Shown here piece after piece: positions 1-16,635 of a DNA stretch of 19,804 nt (positions within the stretch are counted from its first letter, which is position 1; each line of letters opens with the position of its first letter). This stretch comes from a virus (Duplodnaviria; Heunggongvirae; Uroviricota; Caudoviricetes). The stretch is from IMG/VR virus record IMGVR_UViG_2648501400_000003, one strand, 5' to 3'. The notes under the pieces were generated by a model. The model did no database searches and was not told the DNA's origin. It saw only the letters and a program-made list of their open reading frames with translations. Both the position numbers and the translations under genes were made by a program.

Positions 1-93
1 ATCTGCTCTCCAATGACTAGTCTAAAAACTAGTATTAAGACTATCACTTATTTAAGTGATATTGGTTGTCTGGAGATTCAGGGGGCCAGTCTA
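1..93 (-). mobile_element. IS2 left end, partial (IRL plus leader up to the first two bases of the orfA ATG); body of the element lies outside the window to the left
   Basis: Bases 1-97 are the exact reverse complement of 19704-19800 (checked base by base). Read on the - strand, the sequence TAGACTGGCCCCCTGAATCTCCAGACAACCAATATCACTTAAATAAGTGATAG... matches the IS2 (IS3 family) IRL and leader as I remember it. From memory, not database-checked. Confidence 0.7.
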
Positions 94-1141: not shown

Positions 1142-1462
1142 CACATCATGCGCTGTATCGTCGCTGTATTCCTGCATTAACCATGACCGTAGCCCGACGG
1201 GGAACTCCTTCTGCGTGAGTGTGCGGGAATAATCAAAAACGATGCACACCGGGTTTTTACCGCGCTAATGATTCGCGGGTTTGTCCCTCATGCTCGCCAG
1301 TCCTGTGCGGGGGTGGAAGAAACAGGACACTCACACAGATTCTTGTGGGCACGATGCTATTCCTTTCTGGATTATCCCGATGCCATTCATGCAGGGCGCT
1401 GTATCAGACGTTCGTCATGGCTGTCAGGCTGACGGGTCCTCCCGGTGGGGTGGCCTGCCACG

Positions 1463-1474
1463 GGGCGGGAGCGT
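1463..1474. other. cosN-like cohesive-end site; predicted 12-nt 5' overhang GGGCGGGAGCGT
   Basis: CGGGTCCTCCCGGTGGGGTGGCCTGCCACG|GGGCGGGAGCGT|CGCGG parallels lambda ...CGGGTCCTTTCCGGTGATCCGACAGGTTACG|GGGCGGCGACCT|CGCGGG (lambda right end, cosN and left end, from memory). It lies about 185-195 bp upstream of the small terminase start, the same spacing as lambda cosN to Nu1. Confidence 0.65.
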
Positions 1475-1525
1475 CGCGGAAAAAGGCTAGTTTTTGCATT
1501 TCCATGGCGGCGGCAACATGTTTAG

Positions 1526-1538
1526 TAATTTATTGATA
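1526..1538 (+). promoter_or_regulatory. Candidate IHF binding site within cosB
   Basis: TAATTTATTGATA fits the IHF consensus YAANNNNTTGATW. It sits in the AT-rich stretch between cosN and the small terminase gene, where lambda has IHF site I1. Confidence 0.3.
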
Positions 1539-1658
1539 ATTAAAAGTTATTTCTCTTTTCACCTGTACAATATTTTTTTCTCCCTGTCATTAGACCAGTT
1601 TGCAATTAATTGAAATATATAAATAAACCTGATTTTCACCTGCCAGATGGAGTTGCTT

Positions 1659-2186
1659 ATGTCAAATGTGAGCGGGATCGGTGATGCTTATTACTGGAGT
1701 GTTTTTAAAATCGCCGAGGCCTTTGGGCTTCACCGGGACACAGTAAAAAAACGGCTCCTCGCGGCCAACACTCCTGTGGCTGCGACTGTCAGGGGGAACC
1801 CCGTTTACGCCCTGCAGCATGTCGGGCCAGCCCTGTTTAGTGTGAAGCATGAGGCAGCAGACTCTGTTCATGATCCATCCCGTATGGAGCCGAAAGAGAG
1901 AAAGGACTGGTACCAGTCTGAAAATGAAAGGATCAAGCTGGAAAAGGAGCAGCGAAAACTCATCCCAGTTGATGAAGTAGTCATCGTCTATTCGTCCATG
2001 AGAAAGGCTGTCGTCCAGGTTCTGGAGACAATTCCGGATGTTCTTGAACGCGATTGCGCCCTGACTCCTCAGGCCGTCGGCGTTGTACAGCAGGCCATTG
2101 ATGACCTGCGATACACTCTTCAGGAAAAATCCTACGAGGCTTGTGCTGCTGAATTAATTCCTGATGAGGAAGGAGAGAGTCTCTAG
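1659..2186 (+). CDS. Terminase small subunit (Nu1-like, N-terminal HTH)
   Basis: IAEAFGLHRDTVKKRL... HTH region and ELIPDEE C-terminus parallel lambda Nu1 (ADIFGASIRTIQNW..., ...ELIPGLLSEY). ATG at 1659 has GGAG 6 nt upstream; the upstream ATG at 1647 (ORF track start) has no SD but cannot be excluded. Confidence 0.75.
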   Translation: MSNVSGIGDAYYWSVFKIAEAFGLHRDTVKKRLLAANTPVAATVRGNPVYALQHVGPALFSVKHEAADSVHDPSRMEPKERKDWYQSENERIKLEKEQRKLIPVDEVVIVYSSMRKAVVQVLETIPDVLERDCALTPQAVGVVQQAIDDLRYTLQEKSYEACAAELIPDEEGESL

Positions 2187-2194
2187 GAGGAATA

Positions 2195-4294
2195 ATGGGT
2201 TTTTCATCAGCCCGAAATTTGGGAAGGGACATATCGGCAGGATTTTCCCCACCACGTCGCATGCCGATTTCGGAGGCTGTTAAAAAATTCATGCGTGTTC
2301 CCAAGGGGGCTGGTAACTCGGTGCCATGGGATCCTGAACTGACACCCTACATCATTGAGCCCATGAACTGCCTGGCATCGCGTGAATACGATGCGGTGAT
2401 TTTTGTTGGTCCTGCGCGAACAGGGAAGACCATTGGTCTGATCGATGGATGGATTGTCTATACCATCGTTTGCGATCCTTCGGACATGCTCGTTGTGCAG
2501 ATGACCGAAGATAAGGCCCGCGAGCATTCTAAAAAGCGCCTCGACAGAACGTTCAGAAGCAGTGCGGCGGTAAAGAAAAGAATGAGTCCACGTCGTAACG
2601 ACAATAATGTTCATGATAAGACGTTCAGGGATGGCTCGTTCCTTAAAATTGGTTGGCCCTCGGTCAACATTATGTCGTCGTCGGATTACCGGTTTGTCGC
2701 CTTAACCGATTACGACCGTTTTCCGGAGAATATCGACAGCGAGGGTGATGGTTTCTCCCTGGCCTCAAAACGTACCACCACATTTATGTCCGCCGGGATG
2801 ACTCTGGTGGAGAGCTCGCCGGGACGTGACATCTGCGACAGCAAATGGCGACGTAAGTCGCCTCATGAAGCGCCACCGACGACTGGTATTCTTTCCCTTT
2901 ACAATCGTGGTGACCGCCGCCGCTGGTACTGGCCATGTCCGCACTGCGGTGAATATTTTCAGCCAGCCATGGATGCCATGACCGGCTACCGTAATGAACC
3001 GGATCCCTTTAAAGCCAGTGAGGCGGCGTATCTACTTTGCCCGCACTGCAGCGGCATTATCACTGCGGAGAAAAAGCGTGAGCTCAATAGTGCAGGAGTC
3101 TGGTTGCGTGAAGGTCAGGTCATTGATCGTAACGGCAACGTTTCCGGTGAACCGCGCCGCTCCCGTATCGCCAGTTTCTGGATGGAAGGGCCAGCTGCTG
3201 CGTATCAGACCTGGGCGCAACTGGTTTACAAATTACTGACTGCAGAACAGGAGTATGAAGCGACAGGAAGCGAAGAAACACTCAGGGCGGTTATCAATAC
3301 CGACTGGGGATTACCTTATCTTCCCCGCGCCAGCATGGAGCAACGAAAAAGTGAACTGCTTGAGCAGCGGGCAGAGCCAGTTCCTTCCCGCAGTGTGCCG
3401 GATGGCGTTAATTTCCTTGTGGCGGCAGTGGATGTGCAGGCGGGACGTCATCGCCGTTTTGTGGTTCAGGTAACGGGCTATGGCAGCCGTGGCGAACGCT
3501 GGATTATTGATCGTTACAACATCACGCAGTCATTGCGCGGTGACAGCGACGGGGAGAGCCAGCGAATTGATCCGGCCAGCTATCCGGAAGACTGGGATGT
3601 CCTGCTGACGGATGTTTTTCATAAAAGCTGGCCGCTGGCCTCCGATCCTTCTCAACAAATGCGACTGATGGCAATGGCGGTGGACTCCGGCGGTGAAGAC
3701 GGGGTCACTGATAATGCCTATAAATTCTGGCGTCGTTGCCGTCGTGATGGCCTTGGTAAACGTATTTACCTGTTTAAGGGCGACAGCATCCGGCGCGCAA
3801 AACTGATCAGCCGTACATTCCCTGATAACACCGGACGAACGGGCCGACGGGCGCAGGCCGCAGGTGATGTGCCGCTCTGGTTTCTTCAGACGGATGCCCT
3901 GAAAGACCGGGTGAATAACGCGTTATGGCGTGACTCGCCAGGTCCCGGCTATGTGCATTTCCCTGACTGGCTGGGGAGCTGGTTTTACGACGAACTGACG
4001 TATGAAGAGCGGAGCAGTGACGGGAAATGGAGTAAACCGGGTCGCGGTGCCAACGAAGCTTTTGACCTGATGGTGTATGCCGAGGCTCTGGTCATTCTGC
4101 ATGGATACGAAAAGATCCGCTGGCCGGATGCACCGGAGTGGGCGAGCCGGGAAACCTGGCTGGAGTGTGTCCCGGACAGTACCGAACCGTCACCCTCACC
4201 GGAACCGGTATCCACGCCTGTTAAAAAACAAAAACGGAAGAAAACAGTAACTGACGATGTTAACCCCTGGCTGACTTCCGGAGGATGGTTATGA
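2195..4294 (+). CDS. Terminase large subunit (lambda GpA family)
   Basis: 699-aa ORF with perfect AGGAGG SD. Walker A-like VGPARTGKT near the N-terminus; position directly after the small subunit; size and overall architecture as for lambda A. Confidence 0.9.
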   Translation: MGFSSARNLGRDISAGFSPPRRMPISEAVKKFMRVPKGAGNSVPWDPELTPYIIEPMNCLASREYDAVIFVGPARTGKTIGLIDGWIVYTIVCDPSDMLVVQMTEDKAREHSKKRLDRTFRSSAAVKKRMSPRRNDNNVHDKTFRDGSFLKIGWPSVNIMSSSDYRFVALTDYDRFPENIDSEGDGFSLASKRTTTFMSAGMTLVESSPGRDICDSKWRRKSPHEAPPTTGILSLYNRGDRRRWYWPCPHCGEYFQPAMDAMTGYRNEPDPFKASEAAYLLCPHCSGIITAEKKRELNSAGVWLREGQVIDRNGNVSGEPRRSRIASFWMEGPAAAYQTWAQLVYKLLTAEQEYEATGSEETLRAVINTDWGLPYLPRASMEQRKSELLEQRAEPVPSRSVPDGVNFLVAAVDVQAGRHRRFVVQVTGYGSRGERWIIDRYNITQSLRGDSDGESQRIDPASYPEDWDVLLTDVFHKSWPLASDPSQQMRLMAMAVDSGGEDGVTDNAYKFWRRCRRDGLGKRIYLFKGDSIRRAKLISRTFPDNTGRTGRRAQAAGDVPLWFLQTDALKDRVNNALWRDSPGPGYVHFPDWLGSWFYDELTYEERSSDGKWSKPGRGANEAFDLMVYAEALVILHGYEKIRWPDAPEWASRETWLECVPDSTEPSPSPEPVSTPVKKQKRKKTVTDDVNPWLTSGGWL

Positions 4295-8672: not shown

Positions 8673-9251
8673 ATGAAGGGGCTTGAGAATGCCATCCGCA
8701 ATCTGAACAGCCTTGATACCCGTATGGTGCCACAGGCCAGCGCATGGGCGATAAACCGTGTGGCACAGAAAGCGGTCTCGGTTGCCACCCGGCAGGTTGC
8801 CGGGAATACCGTTGCGGGAGATAACCAGGTGAAAGGGATCCCCCTGAAACTGGTACGTCAGCGTGTCCGGGTGTTTAAAGCCAGTCCGTCAGGAAAAATG
8901 ACGGCCAGGATCCGCGTTAACCGGGGCAATCTGCCCGCCATTAAGCTGGGGACAGCCCGGGTCAGACTGGCCCGGCGTGGTGGAAAACTGCAGTACCGTG
9001 GCAGTGTGCTGAAGGTGGGTAAATATCTTTTCCGGGATGCGTTTATTCAGCAACTGGCGAATGGTCGCTGGCATGTGATGCGGCGTATTGATGGCAAAAA
9101 TCGTTACCCCATTGATGTGGTGAAAATCCCGCTTTCCGGACCGCTGACACAGGCATTTGAAGATGCCCGCGACCGCATCATTGCTGCGGAAATGCCGAAA
9201 CAGCTGGGGTATGCACTGAAACAACAACTGAGGTTATGGCTGACCCGATGA
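8673..9251 (+). CDS. Z: Minor tail protein Z
   Basis: 192 aa, same length as lambda Z. Shared stretches include KGLE, AINRV, IRVNRGNLPAIKLG, FIQQLANGRWHVM, GKNRYPIDVVKIP and LGYAL.QQLR. AGAGG SD. Confidence 0.85.
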   Translation: MKGLENAIRNLNSLDTRMVPQASAWAINRVAQKAVSVATRQVAGNTVAGDNQVKGIPLKLVRQRVRVFKASPSGKMTARIRVNRGNLPAIKLGTARVRLARRGGKLQYRGSVLKVGKYLFRDAFIQQLANGRWHVMRRIDGKNRYPIDVVKIPLSGPLTQAFEDARDRIIAAEMPKQLGYALKQQLRLWLTR

Positions 9252-9649
9252 ACCGACATACACAAATCCGCCAGGTCGTACTGGCACGCCTTCGGGAGCA
9301 GTGTGGAGACAGCGCCACGTTTTTTGACGGGCTTCCGGCATTTGTTGATGCGCAGGAACTGCCTGCCGTGGCGGTGTGGCTGAGTGATGCTCAGTACACC
9401 GGAAAAATGACGGATGAAGATGACTGGCAGGCTGTTCTGCATATTGCTGTCTTCATCCGGGCACAGGCACCGGATTCAGAGCTGGATATGTGGATGGAGA
9501 GCACCATTTTCCCGGCCCTGAATGATGTACCGGCACTTTCCGGACTCATCGACACCCTGATCCCACTCGGTTTTAACTATCAACGTGATAATGAGATGGC
9601 CACCTGGGCGATGGCGGAAATCACGTACCAGATCACGTACACGAATTAA
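9248..9649 (+). CDS. U: Minor tail protein U (tail terminator)
   Basis: ATG overlaps the Z stop (ATGA). ATFFDG, PAVAV.L, YTG, PDSELD.WMES and ITY.ITY motifs parallel lambda U. Confidence 0.85.
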   Translation: MNRHTQIRQVVLARLREQCGDSATFFDGLPAFVDAQELPAVAVWLSDAQYTGKMTDEDDWQAVLHIAVFIRAQAPDSELDMWMESTIFPALNDVPALSGLIDTLIPLGFNYQRDNEMATWAMAEITYQITYTN

Positions 9650-9659
9650 GGAGGTGGTA

Positions 9660-10403
9660 ATGACCACACCAAATCCACTGGCAAAGACGAAAGGTGCGGG
9701 GACGACGTTCTGGATGTATACCGGCAAGGGCGATGCGTTTGCGAACCCTTTGTCGGACACTGACTGGCTGCGTCTTGCGATGGTGAAGGATCTGCAACCT
9801 GGCGAAATGACCACTGATGCAGAAGATGACACTTATCTCGATGATGAGGATGCAGACTGGAAAACGACAACCCAGGGGCAGAAATCCGTTGGTGATACTT
9901 CGGCGACGCTGGCCTGGCGTCCGGGTGACAGCGGGCAGAAAAAACTGGTTCAGTTGTTCGACTCCGGTGAAGTCTGCGCGTTTCGTATCAAATATCCCAA
10001 CGGTACTGTTGATGTTTTCCGCGGCTGGCTGAGCTCACTGGGTAAAACCATTGCCTCAAAAGACGTGATGACCCGCACTGTGAAAATCAGCGGTGTGGGG
10101 CGTCCGTATCTGGCAGAGGAAGGCACTGAAACCGTGAGCGTTACCGGGCTGACGGTGGCACCGGCATCTGCCAGTGTAAAAGTGGGAGCAACCACCACGC
10201 TGACCTTTACAGTAAAACCTGACGGAGCCAGTGACAAAGCGATCAGTGTGCATTTGACAGATCCACAGACTGCCACGGTGACCCTGAACGGGCTTGTGGC
10301 CACGGTGAAAGGCGTGAAGCAGGGCAGTGTCAGCATTGTGGGCATGACTTCTGACGGCGATTTTGTGGCAGTGGCTACGGTGGCTGTCAGCGCCGCAGGT
10401 TAA
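9660..10403 (+). CDS. V: Major tail protein V with C-terminal Ig-like (Big_2-type) domain
   Basis: AAGGAGG SD. MTTPNPLAKTKGAGTTFWMY...YLDDEDADW...FRGW closely parallels lambda V ([20 protein letters not shown]...); the C-terminal 90 aa are a beta-rich Ig-like region as in lambda V. Confidence 0.9.
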   Translation: MTTPNPLAKTKGAGTTFWMYTGKGDAFANPLSDTDWLRLAMVKDLQPGEMTTDAEDDTYLDDEDADWKTTTQGQKSVGDTSATLAWRPGDSGQKKLVQLFDSGEVCAFRIKYPNGTVDVFRGWLSSLGKTIASKDVMTRTVKISGVGRPYLAEEGTETVSVTGLTVAPASASVKVGATTTLTFTVKPDGASDKAISVHLTDPQTATVTLNGLVATVKGVKQGSVSIVGMTSDGDFVAVATVAVSAAG

Positions 10404-11188: not shown

Positions 11189-14100
11189 TTTGGGGATTGA
11201 TGCGGCAGAGTTTAAAAATGAAATTCCCCGTATCAAAAACCTTCTGAATGGTGCAGCCAGCGATGCAGAACGGTCTTCTGCCCGTATGCAGCGTTTTATG
11301 GAGCGTCAGACTCAGGCCGCCAGGCAGACAACGCAGGCGGCTTCTTCGGCTGCAACAGCCGCATCCGTCCATGCGCAGACGGTGGAGAAGAACGCACAGG
11401 CTCATGAACGCATGGCCCGCGAGGTGGAGAAAACCCGCCAGCGCATGGAGGCACTGAGCCAGAAAATGCGCGAGGAACAGGCGCAGGCCATGGCTCTGGC
11501 GGAGGCTCAGGATAAAGCGGCTGCTGCGTTTTATCGTCAGATTGACAGTGTGAAACAGGCCAGTGCGGGGCTACAGGAATTACAGCGTATTCAGCAGCAG
11601 ATCCGACAGGCCAGAAACAGTGGCGGGATTGGCCAGCAGGATTATCTGGCGCTGATTTCTGAGGTTACTGCGAAAACCCGTGTTCTTACACAGGCTGAGG
11701 AAGAGGCTACCCGACAGAAAGTGGCGTTTATCCGTCAGCTTAAAGAGCAGGCAACCCGCCAGAATCTTTCATCTTCTGAGTTGCTTCGTGCCAGGGCAGC
11801 CCAGCTAGGGGTAAGCAGTGCTGCAGAAGTGTATATCCGCAAAATGGAGCAGGCAGGAAAAGCCACGCATTCGCTGGGTCTGAAAAGTGCAGCAGCCCGC
11901 CAGGAGATAGGCGTTCTGATAGGTGAACTGGCCCGTGGCAATTTAGGAGCGCTGAGGGGATCCGGGATAACGCTGGCTAACCGTGCCGGATGGATAGACA
12001 CACTGATGTCACCGAAAGGCATGATGCCAGGAGCGGTTATTGGCGGTATTGCCGCGGCCGTCTATGGTCTGGGTAAAGCCTGGTATGACGGTCAGAAGGA
12101 GGGGGAAGAATTTAACCGCCAGCTATCACTGACGGGGCATTATGCCGGAGTCACTGCCGGGCAGCTGTGGACGCTCAGTCGTGCTATTTCCGGGAATGGT
12201 ATCACGCAACATGCTGCAGCCGGTGCGCTGGCTCAGGTGGTGGGGAGTGGTGCATTTCGTGGAAACGATATCGGTATGGTGGCGAGAGCTGCCGCACAGA
12301 TGGAGCGATCGGTTGGCCAGTCGGTCAGCGATACCATAAATCAGTTTAAGCGGCTGAAGGATGATCCTGTAAATGCCGCGAAGGCTCTGGACAATGAGCT
12401 GCATTTTCTTACTGCCACTCAGCTTGAGCAGATACGCGTCCTTGGGGATCAGGGGCGGTCCAGTGATGCGGCACGGATAGCCATGTCTGCACTGGCAGAG
12501 GAAACCGGTCGGCGTACTGCGGATATTGATAATAACCTCAATGCGCTGGGCAGTACGCTGAAGTATCTGTCTGATTTATGGAGTCGTTTCTGGGATGCGG
12601 CCATGAATATTGGTCGTGAAGACTCGCTGGATGAACAGATTGCCGCTTTACAGGAGAAAGTGTCGCGGGCGAAAAGACTCCCCTGGACGGCATCATCTTC
12701 TCAGGTTGAATACGATCAGCAGCGTCTTAACGATCTTCAGGAGAAAAAACGCCAGAAGGATTTGCAGGATGCAAAAGAGCAGGCAGAGCGGAATTATCAG
12801 GAGCAACAGAAACGCCGTAATGCTGAAAATGCTGCACTGAACCGGATGAATGAAACGGAAGCAGCACGACATCAGCGTGAAATTGCGCGTATTAATGCCA
12901 TGCAGTACGCCGATCAGGCTGTCAGGGATGCGGCGATACAACGTGAAAATGAACGTTACGAGAAAGCCCTGGCATCCGGTAAGAAAAAAACACGCGAAAC
13001 CCGTAATGATGAGGCCACCCGGTTATTGCTGCAGTACAGTCAGCAACAGGCACAGGTGGAAGGACAGATTGCTGCTGCCAGACAGTCAGCAGGCATTGCC
13101 ACGGAAAGGATGACAGAAGCGCATAAACAGCTTCTGGCTCTGCAGCAGCGCATCAGCGACCTGGACGGGAAAAAACTGACGGCAGATGAAAAGAGTGTGC
13201 TGGCCAGTAAAGATGAACTGATTCAGGCACTGACGCTGCTGGATGTAAAACAGCAGGAGCTTCAGAAACAGACGGCACTCAACGATCTGAAGAAAAAAAC
13301 AATTCAGCTGACCAGTCAACTGGCTGAAGAAGAGCGCGCTCAGCGTCAGCAACATGACCTGGATATCGCCACGGTGGGTATGGGTGATCAGCAGCGGCAG
13401 CGATATCAGGTACAACTGAGTCTTCGCCAGAAATACCAGCAACAGCTGGAGCAGTTGAGGCGGGATAGTGAGCAGAAAGGGACATATAACACGGATGACT
13501 ACAGAAAGGCCGAGCAGGCGCTGACGGAGAGCCTGAACCGACAACTGAATGAGAATCGCCGTTACTGGCAACAGCTTGAAATTGCTCAGGGTAACTGGAA
13601 AAACGGTGCCATGCGGGCGTTTCAGAATTTCACGGCAGATGCGGATAATGCGGCAGGCACTGCTGAGCAGATGCTTACAGCGGCATTTAACAGTGCTGGT
13701 AATGCACTGGCGACCTTCTGTACCACCGGAAAACTGAACTTCAAATCTTTTACCGCCTCACTCCTTTCCGATCTGGCAAAAATTATGGCGCAGATGGCCA
13801 TGATGCAGGCGGTGAAGGGGATTGGTTCGGCGTTTGGCTGGGGGAGTGCTGCCGCTGCCAGTGTGACGCCCAATGCTGATGGTGGCGTTTATCAGTCGGC
13901 TGATTTGAGTCGCTACAGCGGCACGGTGGTTAACCGACCGACGTTTTTTGCTTTTGCAAAAGGCGCGGGTGTGATGGGGGAAGCGGGACCTGAAGCCATT
14001 CTGCCACTGCGCCGTGGTGCTGACGGTAAGCTGGGGGTTGTGGCAAATATTGGTGGTTCAGGTATGGCGATGTTTGAGCAGAATAACCATGTGGTGATTA

Positions 14101-14234
14101 ACAACGACGGCACGAACGGGCAGATAGGTCCGGCTGCTCTGAAGGCGGTGTATGACATGGCCCGCAAGGGTGCCCGTGATGAAATTCAGACACAGATGCG
14201 TGATGGTGGCCTGTTCTCCGGAGGTGGACGATGA
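11160..14234 (+). CDS. H: Tail tape measure protein H
   Basis: 1024-aa ORF from the ATG with GGAG SD, after G/T. Long Gln/Glu/Arg/Ala-rich predicted coiled-coil body. The C-terminus ...FEQNNHVVINNDGTNGQIGPAALKAVYDMARKGARDEIQTQMRDGGLFSGGGR matches lambda H as I recall it; the N-terminus MDQIANLVIDLGIDAAEF parallels lambda MAEPVGDLVVDLSLDAARF. Confidence 0.9.
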   Translation: MDQIANLVIDLGIDAAEFKNEIPRIKNLLNGAASDAERSSARMQRFMERQTQAARQTTQAASSAATAASVHAQTVEKNAQAHERMAREVEKTRQRMEALSQKMREEQAQAMALAEAQDKAAAAFYRQIDSVKQASAGLQELQRIQQQIRQARNSGGIGQQDYLALISEVTAKTRVLTQAEEEATRQKVAFIRQLKEQATRQNLSSSELLRARAAQLGVSSAAEVYIRKMEQAGKATHSLGLKSAAARQEIGVLIGELARGNLGALRGSGITLANRAGWIDTLMSPKGMMPGAVIGGIAAAVYGLGKAWYDGQKEGEEFNRQLSLTGHYAGVTAGQLWTLSRAISGNGITQHAAAGALAQVVGSGAFRGNDIGMVARAAAQMERSVGQSVSDTINQFKRLKDDPVNAAKALDNELHFLTATQLEQIRVLGDQGRSSDAARIAMSALAEETGRRTADIDNNLNALGSTLKYLSDLWSRFWDAAMNIGREDSLDEQIAALQEKVSRAKRLPWTASSSQVEYDQQRLNDLQEKKRQKDLQDAKEQAERNYQEQQKRRNAENAALNRMNETEAARHQREIARINAMQYADQAVRDAAIQRENERYEKALASGKKKTRETRNDEATRLLLQYSQQQAQVEGQIAAARQSAGIATERMTEAHKQLLALQQRISDLDGKKLTADEKSVLASKDELIQALTLLDVKQQELQKQTALNDLKKKTIQLTSQLAEEERAQRQQHDLDIATVGMGDQQRQRYQVQLSLRQKYQQQLEQLRRDSEQKGTYNTDDYRKAEQALTESLNRQLNENRRYWQQLEIAQGNWKNGAMRAFQNFTADADNAAGTAEQMLTAAFNSAGNALATFCTTGKLNFKSFTASLLSDLAKIMAQMAMMQAVKGIGSAFGWGSAAAASVTPNADGGVYQSADLSRYSGTVVNRPTFFAFAKGAGVMGEAGPEAILPLRRGADGKLGVVANIGGSGMAMFEQNNHVVINNDGTNGQIGPAALKAVYDMARKGARDEIQTQMRDGGLFSGGGR

Positions 14235-14560
14235 AAACCTTCCGCTGGAAAGTGAAACCCGGTATGGATGTGGCTTCGGCCCCTTCTGTAAGAAAGGTGC
14301 GCTTTGGTGATGGCTATTCCCAGCGAGCGCCTGCCGGGCTGAATTCCAACCTGAAAACGTACAGCGTGACGTTTTCTGTTCCCCGTTGGGAGGCCACGGC
14401 GCTGGAGTCGTTTCTGGCTGAGCACGGGGGCTGGAAAGCCTTTCTGTGGACGCCGCCTTATGAGTGGCGGCAGATAAAGGTGACCTGCGCAAAATGGTCG
14501 TCGCGGGTCAGTATGCTGCGTGTTGAGTTCAGCGCAGAGTTTGAACAGGTGGTGAACTGA
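14231..14560 (+). CDS. M: Tail tip protein M
   Basis: 109 aa, ATG overlapping the H stop (ATGA). Same length and junction geometry as lambda M; sequence appears near-identical to lambda M from memory. Confidence 0.95.
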   Translation: MKTFRWKVKPGMDVASAPSVRKVRFGDGYSQRAPAGLNSNLKTYSVTFSVPRWEATALESFLAEHGGWKAFLWTPPYEWRQIKVTCAKWSSRVSMLRVEFSAEFEQVVN

Positions 14561-15258
14561 TGCAGGATATCCGGCAGGAAACACTGAATGAATGCACCCG
14601 TGCGGAGCAGTCGGCCAGCGTGGTGCTCTGGGAAATCGATCTGACAGAGGTCGGTGGAGAACGTTATTTTTTCTGCAATGAGCAGAACGAAAAAGGTGAG
14701 CCGGTCACCTGGCAGGGGCGACAGTATCAGGCGTACCCCATTCAGGGGAGCGGATTTGAGATGAACGGTAAAGGAGCCAGCGCCAGGCCAACGCTGAAAG
14801 TCTCTAATCTGCACGGCATGGTCACCGGGATGGTGGAAGATTTGCAGAGCCTGGTCGGCGGAACGGTGGTCAGGCGTAAGGTTTACGCCCGTTTTCTGGA
14901 TGCGGTGAATTTCGTCAACGGAAACAGTGACGCCGATCCTGAGCAGGAGGTGATCAGCCGCTGGCGCATTGAGCAGTGCAGCGAACTGAGCTCGGTCAGC
15001 GCGAGCTTTGTGCTGTCCACACCGACGGAAACGGATGGCGCTGTTTTTCCGGGGCGCACCATGCTGGCCAACACCTGTACCTGGACCTATCGCGGTGATG
15101 AGTGCGGTTATCACGGTCCGGCGGTCGCGGATGAATATGACCAGCCGACATCCGATATCACGAAGGATAAATGCAGCAAATGCCTGAGCGGCTGTAAGTT
15201 TCGCAATAACCTCGGCAACTTTGGCGGTTACCTTTCCATCAACAAACTTTCGCAGTAA
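14560..15258 (+). CDS. L: Tail tip protein L
   Basis: 232 aa, start overlapping the M stop (TGATG). Same length and offset as lambda L; four-Cys cluster near the C-terminus (CSKCLSGC). Confidence 0.95.
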   Translation: MQDIRQETLNECTRAEQSASVVLWEIDLTEVGGERYFFCNEQNEKGEPVTWQGRQYQAYPIQGSGFEMNGKGASARPTLKVSNLHGMVTGMVEDLQSLVGGTVVRRKVYARFLDAVNFVNGNSDADPEQEVISRWRIEQCSELSSVSASFVLSTPTETDGAVFPGRTMLANTCTWTYRGDECGYHGPAVADEYDQPTSDITKDKCSKCLSGCKFRNNLGNFGGYLSINKLSQ

Positions 15259-15262
15259 ATCC

Positions 15263-16006
15263 ATGACACAGACAGATTCAGCGATTCTGGCGCACGCCCG
15301 GCGATGTGCGCCAGCGGAGTCGTGCGGCTTCGTGGTGAGAACGCCGGAGGGAGAAAGATATTTTCCCTGCGTGAATATCTCCGGTGAGCCGGAGGATTAT
15401 TTCAGGCTGTCGCCGGAGGACTGGCTGCGGGCAGAGATGCAGGGTGAGATTGTGGCGCTGGTCCACAGCCACCCCGGTGGTCTGCCCTGGCTGAGTGAGG
15501 CCGACAGGCGGTTGCAGGTGCAGAGTGATTTGCCGTGGTGGCTGGTCTGCCGGGGGGCGATTCACAAGTTCCGCTGTGTGCCACATCTCACCGGGCGGCG
15601 CTTTGAGCACGGGGTGACAGATTGTTACACGCTGTTCCGGGATGCTTACCATCTGGCGGGGATTGAGATGCCGGATTTTCATCGTGAGGATGACTGGTGG
15701 CGTCACGGTCAGAATCTCTATCTGGATAATCTGGAGGCCACAGGGCTGTATCAGGTGCCGTTGTCATCAGTACAACCGGGTGATGTGCTGCTGTGCTGTT
15801 TTGGTTCATCGGTGCCAAATCATGCCGCTATTTACTGTGGTGACGGCGAGCTGCTGCACCATATTCCTGAACAACTGAGCAAACGAGAGAGGTATACCGA
15901 AAAATGGCAGCGACGCACACACTCCCTCTGGCGTCACCGGGCATGGCACGCATCTGCCTTTACGGGGATTTACAACGATTTGGCCGCCGCATCGGCCTTC
16001 GTGTGA
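15263..16006 (+). CDS. K: Tail tip assembly protein K (JAMM/MPN domain plus NlpC/P60 domain)
   Basis: JAMM motif H-x-H-x7-S-x2-D visible in HSHPGGLPWLSEAD. The 3' end coincides with lambda K. The first ATG of the ORF is used here; classical lambda annotation starts 48 codons later at a Met that is Leu here (FRLSPED), so the long form is more likely. Confidence 0.85.
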   Translation: MTQTDSAILAHARRCAPAESCGFVVRTPEGERYFPCVNISGEPEDYFRLSPEDWLRAEMQGEIVALVHSHPGGLPWLSEADRRLQVQSDLPWWLVCRGAIHKFRCVPHLTGRRFEHGVTDCYTLFRDAYHLAGIEMPDFHREDDWWRHGQNLYLDNLEATGLYQVPLSSVQPGDVLLCCFGSSVPNHAAIYCGDGELLHHIPEQLSKRERYTEKWQRRTHSLWRHRAWHASAFTGIYNDLAAASAFV

Positions 16007-16575
16007 AAACGGGGGCTGAAGCCATCCGGGCGCTGGCCACGCAGCTTCCGTCGTTTCGCCAGAAACTGAGCGACGGCTGGTATCAGGTACGGATTGCCGG
16101 GCAGGATGTCAGCACGTCCGGATTAACGGCGCAGTTACATGAGACTCTGCCTGATGGCGCTGTGATTCATATTGTTCCCAGAGTCGCCGGGGCCAAGTCA
16201 GGTGGTGTATTCCAGATTGTCCTGGGAGCAGCCGCCATTGCCGGATCATTCTTTACCGCCGGAGCCACCCTTGCAGCATGGGGGGCAGCCATTGGGGCCG
16301 GTGGTATGACCGGCATCCTGTTTTCTCTCGGTGCCAGTATGGTGCTCGGTGGTGTGGCGCAGATGCTGGCCCCTAAACCAAGAACTCCCCGCACACAAAC
16401 AACGGATAACGGTAAGCAGAACACGTATTTCTCGTCACTGGATAACATGGTTGCCCAGGGCAATGTTCTGCCTGTTCTGTACGGTGAAATGCGCGTGGGG
16501 TCACGTGTTGTCTCTCAGGAGATTAGCACGGCAGACGAGGGGGACGGTGGTCAGGTTGTGGTGATTGGTCGTTGA
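15904..16575 (+). CDS. I: Tail tip assembly protein I
   Basis: 223 aa, overlapping the 3' end of K by 103 nt in another frame, exactly as lambda I does. Gly/Ala-rich hydrophobic stretch in the middle. Confidence 0.85.
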   Translation: MAATHTLPLASPGMARICLYGDLQRFGRRIGLRVKTGAEAIRALATQLPSFRQKLSDGWYQVRIAGQDVSTSGLTAQLHETLPDGAVIHIVPRVAGAKSGGVFQIVLGAAAIAGSFFTAGATLAAWGAAIGAGGMTGILFSLGASMVLGGVAQMLAPKPRTPRTQTTDNGKQNTYFSSLDNMVAQGNVLPVLYGEMRVGSRVVSQEISTADEGDGGQVVVIGR

Positions 16576-16593
16576 TGAAAAACGTTTTATGTG

Positions 16594-16614
16594 AAACCGC
16601 CTCAGGGCGGTTTT
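16594..16614 (+). terminator. Hairpin between I and J (possible attenuator or RNA processing site)
   Basis: AAACCGCC-TCAG-GGCGGTTT perfect 8-bp stem followed by TTTT, 18 nt after the I stop and about 20 nt before the J start. Confidence 0.35.
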
Positions 16615-16635
16615 GTCGTTTCTGGAGCGAGAGGA

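What the first reader, a model, noticed from the sequence alone, without database searches (positions are those of the whole stretch)
1440..1540. cos site with a variant 12-nt cohesive end (GGGCGGGAGCGT) and an IHF-like site in cosB
The sequence around 1463 parallels the lambda right end/cosN/left end (shared ACG|GGGCGG...|CGCGG framing) but the predicted 12-nt overhang differs from lambda's GGGCGGCGACCT at four positions. The distance to the small terminase start matches lambda cosN to Nu1. This fits a head/packaging module with its own terminase specificity joined to a lambda tail module, and means the prophage segment retains a packaging origin. A consensus IHF site (TAATTTATTGATA, 1526-1538) lies where lambda cosB has I1.
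Basis: partly seen in the sequence, partly recalled or inferred. Interest (0 to 1): 0.5.

Follow-up and report, generated by a model that had tools for sequence, protein, structure and literature searches.

The report
Known lambdoid prophage cos packaging site
This is the DNA-packaging (cos) site of a common E. coli lambda-like prophage, with sticky ends four bases different from lambda's; the same site already marks the ends of two deposited phage genomes, so it is real but ordinary.

Summary
Window 1434-1646 is a complete lambda-type cos. It has cosQ GGGTCCT (1434-1440) and cosN CG|GGGCGGGAGCGT|CG (12-mer 1463-1474, differing from lambda at bp 7, 8, 9, 11). Its cosB holds the window's only perfect IHF consensus (1526-1538, minus strand). 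A DUF1441-type small terminase (ATG 1659, +197) and a GpA-type large terminase follow.

The genome records of phage cdtI (2007) and of the plaque-forming phage Tritos begin at GGGCGGGAGCGT and end at ...CCACG, 99.6% and 98.7% identical to the window over the first 238 bases. I could not read how those ends were fixed. About 14% of complete E. coli genomes carry this cos type.

Published work from the Feiss laboratory already reports that bp 7-12 of cosN vary freely among lambda-like phages, while the CG flanks and cosQ stay fixed.

My comparisons add two things. The overhang sequence and the terminase/cosB type assort independently. In 14 of 20 diverged relatives, the best IHF-consensus match lies at +64/+65. 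CA(C/G)(C/G)TG motifs, candidate small-terminase sites, recur near +55, +98 and +175; the window has the last two.

The physical ends were not tested.

The parts
1434..1440 (+). cosQ heptamer GGGTCCT, the packaging-termination signal in lambda
   Evidence: Identical to lambda cosQ and 29 nt before the nick, against 30 in lambda. It is unchanged in all but one of the ~40 distinct upstream sequences of close relatives; L164 reads GGGTCCTACC just after the heptamer.
1461..1476 (.). cosN core CG|GGGCGGGAGCGT|CG. The predicted nicks are after 1462 on the top strand and after 1474 on the bottom strand, leaving a 12-nt 5' overhang (1463-1474).
   Evidence: The cdtI and Tritos records start at 1463-equivalent and end at 1462-equivalent. 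CG flanks both nicks as in lambda. 12 of 22 bp show twofold symmetry, against 10 of 22 in lambda.
1475..1505 (+). Conserved spacer between cosN and cosB: CGCGGAAAAAGGCTAGTTTTTGCATTTCCAT
   Evidence: CGCGG, GGCTAGTTTT and TTTCAT are conserved in 20 diverged relatives. The stretch is partly alignable to lambda +13..+45.
1506..1522 (+). R3-equivalent position (+44..+60): GGCGGCGGCAACATGTT, a candidate small-terminase site
   Evidence: It lies close to lambda R3, which spans bp 50-65 (PMC9026076). Seven of 20 relatives carry CA(C/G)(C/G)TG at +55/+56, preceded by triplet runs such as CAGCAG or CATCAT. The window's copy is degenerate (CATGTT). Function is inferred.
1526..1538 (-). IHF consensus TATCAATAAATTA (I1-equivalent), flanked by A/T-rich sequence
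   Evidence: It is the only WATCAANNNNTTR match in the window. In 14 of 20 diverged relatives the best match lies at +64/+65 on the minus strand. Mean best mismatch is 0.90, against 2.12 +/- 0.15 in shuffles.
1556..1565 (+). R2-equivalent TTTTCACCTG (CACCTG at +98)
   Evidence: It is an exact direct repeat of 1633-1642. CA(C/G)(C/G)TG starts at +98 in 8 of 20 diverged relatives. The sequence co-varies with small-terminase N-terminal subtype.
1584..1605 (+). Conserved block CTGTCATTAGACCAGTTTGCAA, role unknown
   Evidence: The pattern TCAxCTGACCAGxTTGxAA is shared with relatives whose neighbouring sequence has diverged.
1633..1642 (+). R1-equivalent TTTTCACCTG (CACCTG at +175)
   Evidence: CA(C/G)(C/G)TG starts at +174/+175 in 12 of 20 diverged relatives. 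It ends 16 nt before the small-terminase ATG. By my recollection (not checked here), lambda R1 lies near +153..+168, ahead of Nu1 at +191.
1659..2186 (+). Small terminase (175 aa; DUF1441 family). GGAG at 1649-1652 favours ATG 1659 over ATG 1647.
   Evidence: Pfam PF07278, E 1.7e-44. 100% identical to the small terminase of cdtI, Tritos and HannyBb. Profile comparison to the Nu1 group is collinear (E 1.7e-4, probability 49%). [quoted passage not shown]
2195..4294 (+). Large terminase (699 aa), gpA family, with ATPase and endonuclease domains
   Evidence: Pfam GpA_ATPase E 4.9e-81 and GpA_nuclease E 3.8e-86, both covering the full profile. 24% identical to lambda gpA over 627 aa, E 3e-22.

Best explanation
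Window 1434-1646 is the cos site of a lambdoid prophage of the cdtI/Tritos type. Its head genes resemble Gifsy-2 and its distal tail genes resemble lambda.

Proposed mechanism, by analogy with lambda:
[quoted passage not shown] The likely sites are the CAxxTG-core sequences near +55, +98 and +175.
- IHF bends the DNA at +64..+76, between the first two sites.
- This anchors the gpA-type large terminase on cosN. It nicks the top strand after 1462 and the bottom strand after 1474, giving 12-nt 5' ends (GGGCGGGAGCGT).
- DNA is then packaged rightwards until the next cosQ-cosN.

What is shown: the sequence anatomy, its conservation, the protein families, and the coincidence with the ends of deposited phage genomes. 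What is inferred: the nick positions, IHF binding, and the identity of the small-terminase sites.

The four differences from lambda's overhang lie in bp 7-12, the half of cosN reported to drift freely. They do not define packaging specificity.
For: - Record ends. The cdtI and Tritos records begin at GGGCGGGAGCGT and end at ...CCACG, at 99.6% and 98.7% identity over the first 238 bases. Tritos forms plaques and was imaged as a siphovirus (PMC9928086). An IMG/VR contig (L218) begins exactly at +1 of a related cos.
- Chance. The composite cosQ-cosN pattern occurs in 0 of 200 shuffles.
- Gene context. The order is Rz, Rha, cos, small terminase, gpA-type large terminase, lambda-family portal, ClpP-capsid fusion.
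- Geometry. In 19 of 20 diverged small-terminase-anchored relatives, the start codon is at +195..+199 from the predicted nick; the exception, L208, is at +210.
- IHF consensus. It is perfect in the window, and its position recurs in relatives.
- Candidate small-terminase sites. CA(C/G)(C/G)TG recurs at +55, +98 and +174/175, and co-varies with small-terminase subtype.
- Small-terminase fold. It has a winged helix-turn-helix and is remotely collinear with Nu1.
- Literature. Differences at bp 7-12 are common (N15: 9, 12; Gifsy-1: 8, 9, 11). The CG flanks and cosQ are conserved, and lambda's large terminase tolerates right-half changes (PMC4669245). Phage Cr-LKS3, whose small terminase is 38% identical to the window's, is reported to have 5' cohesive ends with lambda-like flanks (PMC9303873).
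Against: - No virion DNA ends were measured here. The paper on cdtI (Asakura 2007) and the cosN survey (Vahanian 2017) could not be read, so the record starts may rest on analogy with lambda. The cdtI record is flagged circular.
- Overhang length is not fixed in the wider family. Cr-LKS3 is reported with 9 nt, and one relative (L208) appears to have 13 nt between the CG flanks.
- The window's R3-equivalent lacks the CAxxTG core (it reads CATGTT). All cosB sites are co-inherited with the small-terminase gene, so the co-variation could be phylogenetic.
- An IS3-family element truncates Rz at window 1-93. This prophage may not complete lysis on its own.
Confidence: 0.9

Rival explanations
1. The site is a relic. 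The sequence is cos-like, but this prophage is defective and the site is no longer used for packaging.
For: An IS3-family element end occupies window 1-93. Rz homology to lambda begins only at window 94, which matches lambda 46135, about codon 57 of Rz. The rest of the prophage lies outside the window and is unknown.
Against: The cos-to-small-terminase segment differs from inducible cdtI at 1 of 238 bases, and the small terminase is 100% identical to that of plaque-forming Tritos. Both large-terminase domains and the portal are full length. A cos site can also be used in trans by a related helper, which I state from general knowledge of lambdoid prophage pools.
Confidence: 0.1
2. The site is a cos, but the nicks or the overhang length differ from the lambda-style 12-nt 5' prediction.
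For: Related phages with DUF1441 small terminases differ in overhang length. Cr-LKS3 is reported with 9 nt, and L208 shows a 13-nt spacing between the flanks. How the deposited record ends were fixed could not be verified.
Against: The CG|N12|CG framing matches lambda exactly and is conserved in close relatives. Three independent records or contigs start at +1. The left half GGGCGG is identical to lambda's.
Confidence: 0.06
3. The TTGAT-containing element at 1526-1538 is a small-terminase contact or only a bendable A/T tract, not an IHF site.
For: The element is flanked by a short inverted repeat (TAATT...AATTA). In the mEp460-type cosB the matching element lies inside an 8-bp inverted repeat (ACTGTAAT-N8-ATTACAGT). 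The region is A/T-rich, which raises the chance of consensus matches.
Against: The consensus is perfect in 7 of 20 diverged relatives and lies at +64/+65 in 14 of 20. It is far better than composition-matched shuffles (0.90 against 2.12 mismatches). The strand and interval match lambda I1. One Salmonella relative (L137) has almost the lambda I1 sequence at this position.
Confidence: 0.15

Closest known systems
Bacteriophage lambda cos (cosQ-cosN-cosB with R3-I1-R2-R1)
   Same: cosQ is the identical heptamer at nearly the same distance (29 against 30 nt). The CG|12 nt|CG framing is the same, and the left half GGGCGG is identical. An IHF consensus lies on the same strand between the first two putative small-terminase sites. 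The small-terminase start is at +197 against +191. The large terminase is of the gpA family.
   Different: The overhang differs at bp 7, 8, 9 and 11. The cosB sequence is unrelated to lambda's R sites. The small terminase is DUF1441, not Nu1, with no significant pairwise similarity and only a weak profile match. The large terminase is 24% identical. The IHF core lies 10-15 bp nearer to cosN.
Phage cdtI (AB285204/NC_009514) and phage Tritos (OV696610, prophage 3 of E. coli LF82)
   Same: These carry the same cos. The records start at GGGCGGGAGCGT and end at CCACG, the first 238 bases are 99.6% and 98.7% identical to the window, and the small terminase is 100% identical.
   Different: The sequence to the left of cosQ differs, as do the accessory genes. 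Here an IS element interrupts Rz.
mEp460/Ayreon-type and mEp213/mEp043/LLS-type lambdoid phages
   Same: They share the family framing CCACG|N12|CGCGGxAAxGGCTAGTTTT, a DUF1441 small terminase and Gifsy-2-like heads. mEp460-type phages carry the identical 12-mer. LLS and mEp213 are inferred to carry GGGCGGCGCGCT (PMC12315714).
   Different: Their small-terminase N-terminal domain is of a different type (MDRELKNL... or MDQEIATL...). Their cosB is different (TCATCAxCA, TGTCGAAT and TGTTCAxCA elements), and in the mEp213 type the start codon is at +130.
Gifsy-1 and N15 cosN variants described by the Feiss laboratory
   Same: The pattern of natural variation is the same: changes are confined to bp 7-12 (Gifsy-1: 8, 9, 11; N15: 9, 12), with conserved CG flanks and cosQ (PMC4669245).
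   Different: The window also changes bp 7. N15 has a simple cosB with one R site and no IHF site. Gifsy-1 did not appear among the 60 listed phage records with a DUF1441-like small terminase (61 matched), so its small terminase is probably of another type.

Membership tests
Lambda-type cos site (5' 12-nt cohesive ends made by a gpA-family terminase) | gpA-family large terminase with ATPase and endonuclease domains encoded just downstream | tested here: met
   Pfam GpA_ATPase E 4.9e-81 and GpA_nuclease E 3.8e-86, both covering the full profile. BLASTP against lambda gpA: E 3e-22, 24% identity.
Lambda-type cos site (5' 12-nt cohesive ends made by a gpA-family terminase) | cosN: two nick sites 12 bp apart, each preceded by 5'-CG on its own strand, with partial twofold symmetry | tested here: met
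   CG|GGGCGGGAGCGT|CG at 1461-1476. 12 of 22 bp are symmetric, against 10 of 22 in lambda. This shows the sequence only, not cleavage.
Lambda-type cos site (5' 12-nt cohesive ends made by a gpA-family terminase) | cosQ heptamer upstream of cosN | tested here: met
   GGGTCCT at 1434-1440, 29 nt before the nick against 30 in lambda.
Lambda-type cos site (5' 12-nt cohesive ends made by a gpA-family terminase) | Complex cosB: three small-terminase sites in the order R3-I1-R2-R1, with R2 inverted | tested here: inconclusive
   An IHF consensus is present and its position recurs in relatives. CAxxTG-core motifs occur near +55, +98 and +175 in relatives, and at +98 and +175 in the window. Orientation cannot be assigned from a near-palindromic core, and binding was not tested.
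Lambda-type cos site (5' 12-nt cohesive ends made by a gpA-family terminase) | [quoted passage not shown] | tested here: met
   The AF2 model (pLDDT 82) shows H-E-H-H-E-E followed by long helices. Foldseek matches MerR-like winged helix-turn-helix domains and a phage small-terminase DNA-binding domain (probability 0.9-0.99, E 0.09-1). hhalign to the Nu1 group is collinear (E 1.7e-4). The protein is not a member of the Nu1 Pfam family; it is DUF1441.
Lambda-type cos site (5' 12-nt cohesive ends made by a gpA-family terminase) | Virion DNA carries complementary 12-nt 5' single-stranded ends of this sequence | not testable with these tools
   The only evidence is indirect. The cdtI and Tritos records and one IMG/VR contig start at +1. 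The primary paper on cdtI is not held.
IHF binding site | Match to WATCAANNNNTTR with an A/T-rich flank on the 5' side of the consensus | tested here: met
   TATCAATAAATTA at 1526-1538 (minus strand) has 0 mismatches and is the only match in the window. The flank on the minus strand is ATAACTTTTAAT. Binding was not tested.

The most novel reading that the evidence does not exclude
The DUF1441 small terminases form a second, undissected branch of lambda-style packaging recognition. In this reading they read a CA(C/G)(C/G)TG-core triad at about +55, +98 and +175 around an IHF bend fixed at +64. [quoted passage not shown] That would make co-resident prophages with the same ends but different cosB, or the reverse, a natural test bed for packaging specificity and cross-packaging in pathogenic E. 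coli.
Probability: 0.35. Interest if true: 0.3.

Novelty: already known. Interest (0 to 1): 0.13.

Why it matters
The practical value is small. The site fixes the natural genome ends for annotating this very common prophage type: matches covering at least 80% of window 1380-1700 occur in 773 of 5,426 complete E. coli genomes. It also shows that this copy keeps an intact packaging signal, so it could be mobilised by itself or by a related helper even though an IS element interrupts Rz. It does not open a new question. Variation of cosN at bp 7-12 and the lambda-like layout of such cos sites are already in the literature. The only modestly new material is the comparative map of cosB for DUF1441-type terminases.

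Tried and rejected
- Literature searches. A search for the exact 12-mer found only an unrelated mammalian promoter paper. Asakura 2007 (cdtI), Vahanian 2017 (the cosN survey) and Casjens & Gilcrease 2009 are not held. I therefore could not establish whether the cdtI ends were measured or whether this 12-mer is listed. The Tritos paper does not describe end determination.
- Sequence search of solved structures with the small-terminase profile gave nothing significant.
- Pairwise BLASTP of the small terminase against Nu1 was not significant.
- The repeat-finding tool did not report the 10-nt TTTTCACCTG repeat. I found it with a k-mer script.
- A Salmonella relative (L137) could not be tied to Gifsy-1 or Gifsy-2 by DNA search; only a weak Fels-1 match appeared.
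- The exact 20-mer scan of species-representative genomes gave true cos hits only in E. coli, E. ruysiae and three metagenome bins carrying the same phage flanks. The hits in Streptomyces, Sphingomonas and a Treponema bin lack the flanks and look like chance or unrelated matches.
- I considered a satellite (PICI) cos and rejected it, because a full terminase-head-tail gene set follows the site.
- I considered that ORF 1219-1536, which spans cos, is coding. I set this aside because no family or annotation supports it, and the flanking sequence varies by non-triplet changes among relatives.
- Bias in the first IMG/VR scan. Its pattern fixed the left half and the flanks, so apparent invariance there is imposed by the search. 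I repeated the sampling anchored on the small-terminase gene.

Full report
**Observation**

Window 1463-1474 is GGGCGGGAGCGT, embedded in ...GACGGGTCCTCCCGGTGGGGTGGCCTGCCACG|GGGCGGGAGCGT|CGCGGAAAAAGGCTAG....

I aligned this stretch to lambda's joined ends (J02459). The alignment shows:
- the lambda cosQ heptamer GGGTCCT at 1434-1440, 29 nt before the predicted nick (30 in lambda);
- the ACG|GGGCGG and T|CGCGG framing;
- partial similarity up to about +45.

The 12-mer differs from lambda's at positions 7, 8, 9 and 11. The composite cosQ-cosN pattern occurs once in the window and in none of 200 shuffles.

TAATTTATTGATA at 1526-1538 is, on the minus strand, a perfect IHF consensus (WATCAANNNNTTR). 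It is the only match in the 19.8 kb window, where 0.43 are expected.

**Gene context**

Upstream of the site lie a truncated Rz and an Rha-family gene. Downstream lie:
- a DUF1441 protein (1647/1659-2186);
- a gpA-family large terminase with complete ATPase and nuclease domains (2195-4294);
- a lambda-family portal;
- a ClpP-protease/major-capsid fusion.

The large terminase is 24% identical to lambda gpA (E 3e-22).

The DUF1441 protein shows no significant pairwise similarity to Nu1. A profile-profile comparison is nevertheless collinear over 125 columns, including the N-terminal helix-turn-helix (E 1.7e-4, probability 49%). [quoted passage not shown] That domain matches MerR-like DNA-binding domains and a phage small-terminase DNA-binding domain. 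The protein therefore looks like a small terminase that works as Nu1 does, without belonging to the Nu1 family.

GGAG at 1649-1652 favours ATG 1659 (+197) as its start.

Against lambda DNA, only 14069-19132 (M-J) is closely related, at 94%. Z-U-V is 66% identical, and the head and terminase genes show no DNA similarity.

**Identity with known phages**

A blastn search of deposited phage genomes shows that two records begin exactly at window 1463. These are phage cdtI (AB285204.1/NC_009514.1) and phage Tritos (OV696610.1). They are 99.6% and 98.7% identical to the window over their first 238 bases.

Reading both ends of both records confirms that they start with GGGCGGGAGCGT and end with ...CCACG. 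The small terminase is 100% identical in cdtI, Tritos and HannyBb.

Tritos is prophage 3 of E. coli LF82. It is spontaneously induced, plaque-forming, and was imaged as a siphovirus (PMC9928086). I could not read the cdtI paper, so I do not know whether those ends were measured or set by analogy with lambda.

Two weaker observations point the same way. An IMG/VR contig (L218) begins exactly at +1 of a related cos. A linear assembly of mEp460_4F5 breaks 5 nt from the predicted nick.

The cos type is common. Of 5,426 complete E. coli genomes, 773 contain a match covering at least 80% of window 1380-1700.

**What the literature already says**

Feiss and colleagues define lambda-like phages by their 12-nt 5' ends. 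They report that differences at bp 7-12 are common (N15 at 9 and 12; Gifsy-1 at 8, 9 and 11). They also report that the CG dinucleotides flanking both nicks and cosQ are conserved, and that lambda's large terminase nicks cosN efficiently when the right half is changed (PMC4669245).

A dedicated survey exists (Vahanian et al. 2017, Virology 509:140), but it is not held. A 2025 paper infers GGGCGGCGCGCT for phages LLS and mEp213, which have the same head type (PMC12315714).

Phage Cr-LKS3, whose small terminase is a DUF1441 relative, is reported to have 5' cohesive ends with lambda-like flanks (PMC9303873).

The window's variant (7, 8, 9, 11) therefore fits a documented pattern.

**Comparative analysis**

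I scanned IMG/VR for ACGGGGCGGNNNNNTCGCGG. The scan returned:

| 12-mer | copies |
|---|---|
| GGGCGGCGACCT (lambda) | 64 |
| GGGCGGGAGCGT (window) | 19 |
| GGGCGGCGCGCT | 9 |
| GGGCGGCGGACT | 5 |
| other variants | 1-3 each |

Most of the non-lambda variants, apart from a few GC-rich chance matches, share the flank CGCGG(A/G)AA(A/T)(A/C)GGCT(A/G)GTTTT.

The window's 12-mer precedes at least three cosB types and two small-terminase N-terminal types. Conversely, a contig with an identical small terminase and near-identical cosB (L147) carries GGGCGGCAGCGG. The overhang sequence and packaging specificity therefore assort independently.

That first scan fixed the left half and the flanks by design. 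I repeated the sampling anchored on the small-terminase gene. Among 20 diverged relatives:
- the CCACG|N12|CGCGG framing and the GGCTAGTTTT block persist;
- the start codon lies at +195..+199 in all but one relative (+210);
- the 12-mer itself varies, including its left half in other genera.

In 14 of the 20, the best IHF-consensus match between +40 and +110 lies at +64/+65 on the minus strand, and 7 of these matches are perfect. The mean best mismatch is 0.90, against 2.12 +/- 0.15 in shuffles. Lambda's best matches lie at +79 and +74 on the same strand.

CA(C/G)(C/G)TG recurs at three positions across the 20 sequences:
- +55/+56 in 7;
- +98 in 8;
- +174/+175 in 12.

The window has TTTTCACCTG at +94..+103 and +171..+180, and a degenerate CATGTT at +55. 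These site sequences differ between small-terminase N-terminal subtypes. That is consistent with their being recognition sites, but linked inheritance would give the same pattern.

**Mechanism**

The best-supported explanation is lambda-style packaging:
1. The small terminase binds cosB.
2. IHF bends the DNA between the first two sites.
3. The gpA-type large terminase nicks 12 bp apart at cosN.
4. cosQ serves termination at the next cos.

The anatomy, the conservation and the record ends are shown by the data. Cleavage positions, IHF binding and the small-terminase sites are inferred.

The rivals carry low weight, but only virion-end sequencing and binding assays can exclude them. They are:
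- a relic site in a defective prophage, suggested by an IS3-family element that truncates Rz at window 1-93;
- a different overhang geometry;
- a non-IHF role for the TTGAT element.

**Verdict**

The site is nevertheless an already known feature of a common, previously sequenced phage type, and the kind of variation it shows has been described. Interest is low.

Noticed in passing
window 1-93 (and Rz at 94-383): The window opens with the end of an IS3-family insertion sequence, which I recognise from memory as IS2. It has 21,679 matching places in 4,742 E. coli genomes. Homology to lambda Rz starts only at window 94, which matches lambda 46135, so Rz and its nested Rz1 are truncated and the prophage may be lysis-impaired.
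   Followed up: partly
L147 (IMG/VR 2778261579_000006), cos region; compare window 1463-1474: A contig with a 100% identical small terminase and near-identical cosB carries the overhang GGGCGGCAGCGG instead of GGGCGGGAGCGT. The same 12-mer occurs in a Salmonella relative (L137). Conversely, the window's 12-mer precedes three different cosB and small-terminase types. cosN and cosB appear to be exchanged independently.
   Followed up: partly
L191-L214, L139 (small-terminase-anchored relatives), position of the 12-mer: In other genera the left half of the 12-mer also varies (AGGCGGCGGCCC, GGGAGTGGGACT, GGTAATCAGCGC, GGTCACGCGCCA, GGTTAACGTGCG, GGGGCGCTAACT). The CCACG...CGCGG frame and the +195..+199 start codon persist. 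One relative (L208) appears to have 13 nt between the flanks.
   Followed up: no
relatives L137, L139, L140, L195-L219, about 29 nt before the nick; window 1434-1462: Most relatives outside the window's own clade (several from Salmonella, Klebsiella and Moellerella genomes) read AGGTACTCC where lambda and the window have GGGTCCT (cosQ). This is often nearly palindromic with the bases just before the nick (GGTACTCCC-NNN-GGGGTACC). The papers I could read describe cosQ as invariant.
   Followed up: no
window 1506-1514 and the same position in relatives: The R3-equivalent position carries triplet-periodic runs: GGCGGCGGC here, and CATCATCATCAT, CAGCAGCAG or CACCACCAC in relatives. Lambda has TTCTTCTTC at its R3.
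   Followed up: no
L218 (IMG/VR 3300038809_000004) base 1; LR595868.1 bases 1-30: A metagenomic viral contig begins exactly at +1 of a related cos (GGGCGGCGGACT). A linear assembly of mEp460_4F5 starts 5 nt left of the predicted nick and lacks 3 nt of the 12-mer. This looks like an assembly artefact at physical DNA ends.
   Followed up: partly
window 1659-2186 compared with alignment A1: The small terminase is mosaic. The N-terminal ~60 residues (the DNA-binding domain) fall into distinct types, while the C-terminal ~100 residues (...WYQSENERIKLE...VLETIPDVLERDCAL...IDDLR) are conserved across types. This suggests that the domain and cosB are exchanged as a cassette.
   Followed up: partly
window 14069-19132; 9000-10120; 1149-1256: There are sharp mosaic boundaries relative to lambda. 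M-J are 94% identical and Z-U-V 66%. A 108-bp patch (1149-1256) is 83% identical to lambda 46868-46974, downstream of the lysis genes.
   Followed up: no
window 1584-1605: A block CTGTCATTAGACCAGTTTGCAA in cosB is conserved in relatives whose neighbouring sequence has diverged. It partly resembles the conserved GGCTAGTTTTTGCA at +23..+36. Its role is unknown.
   Followed up: no
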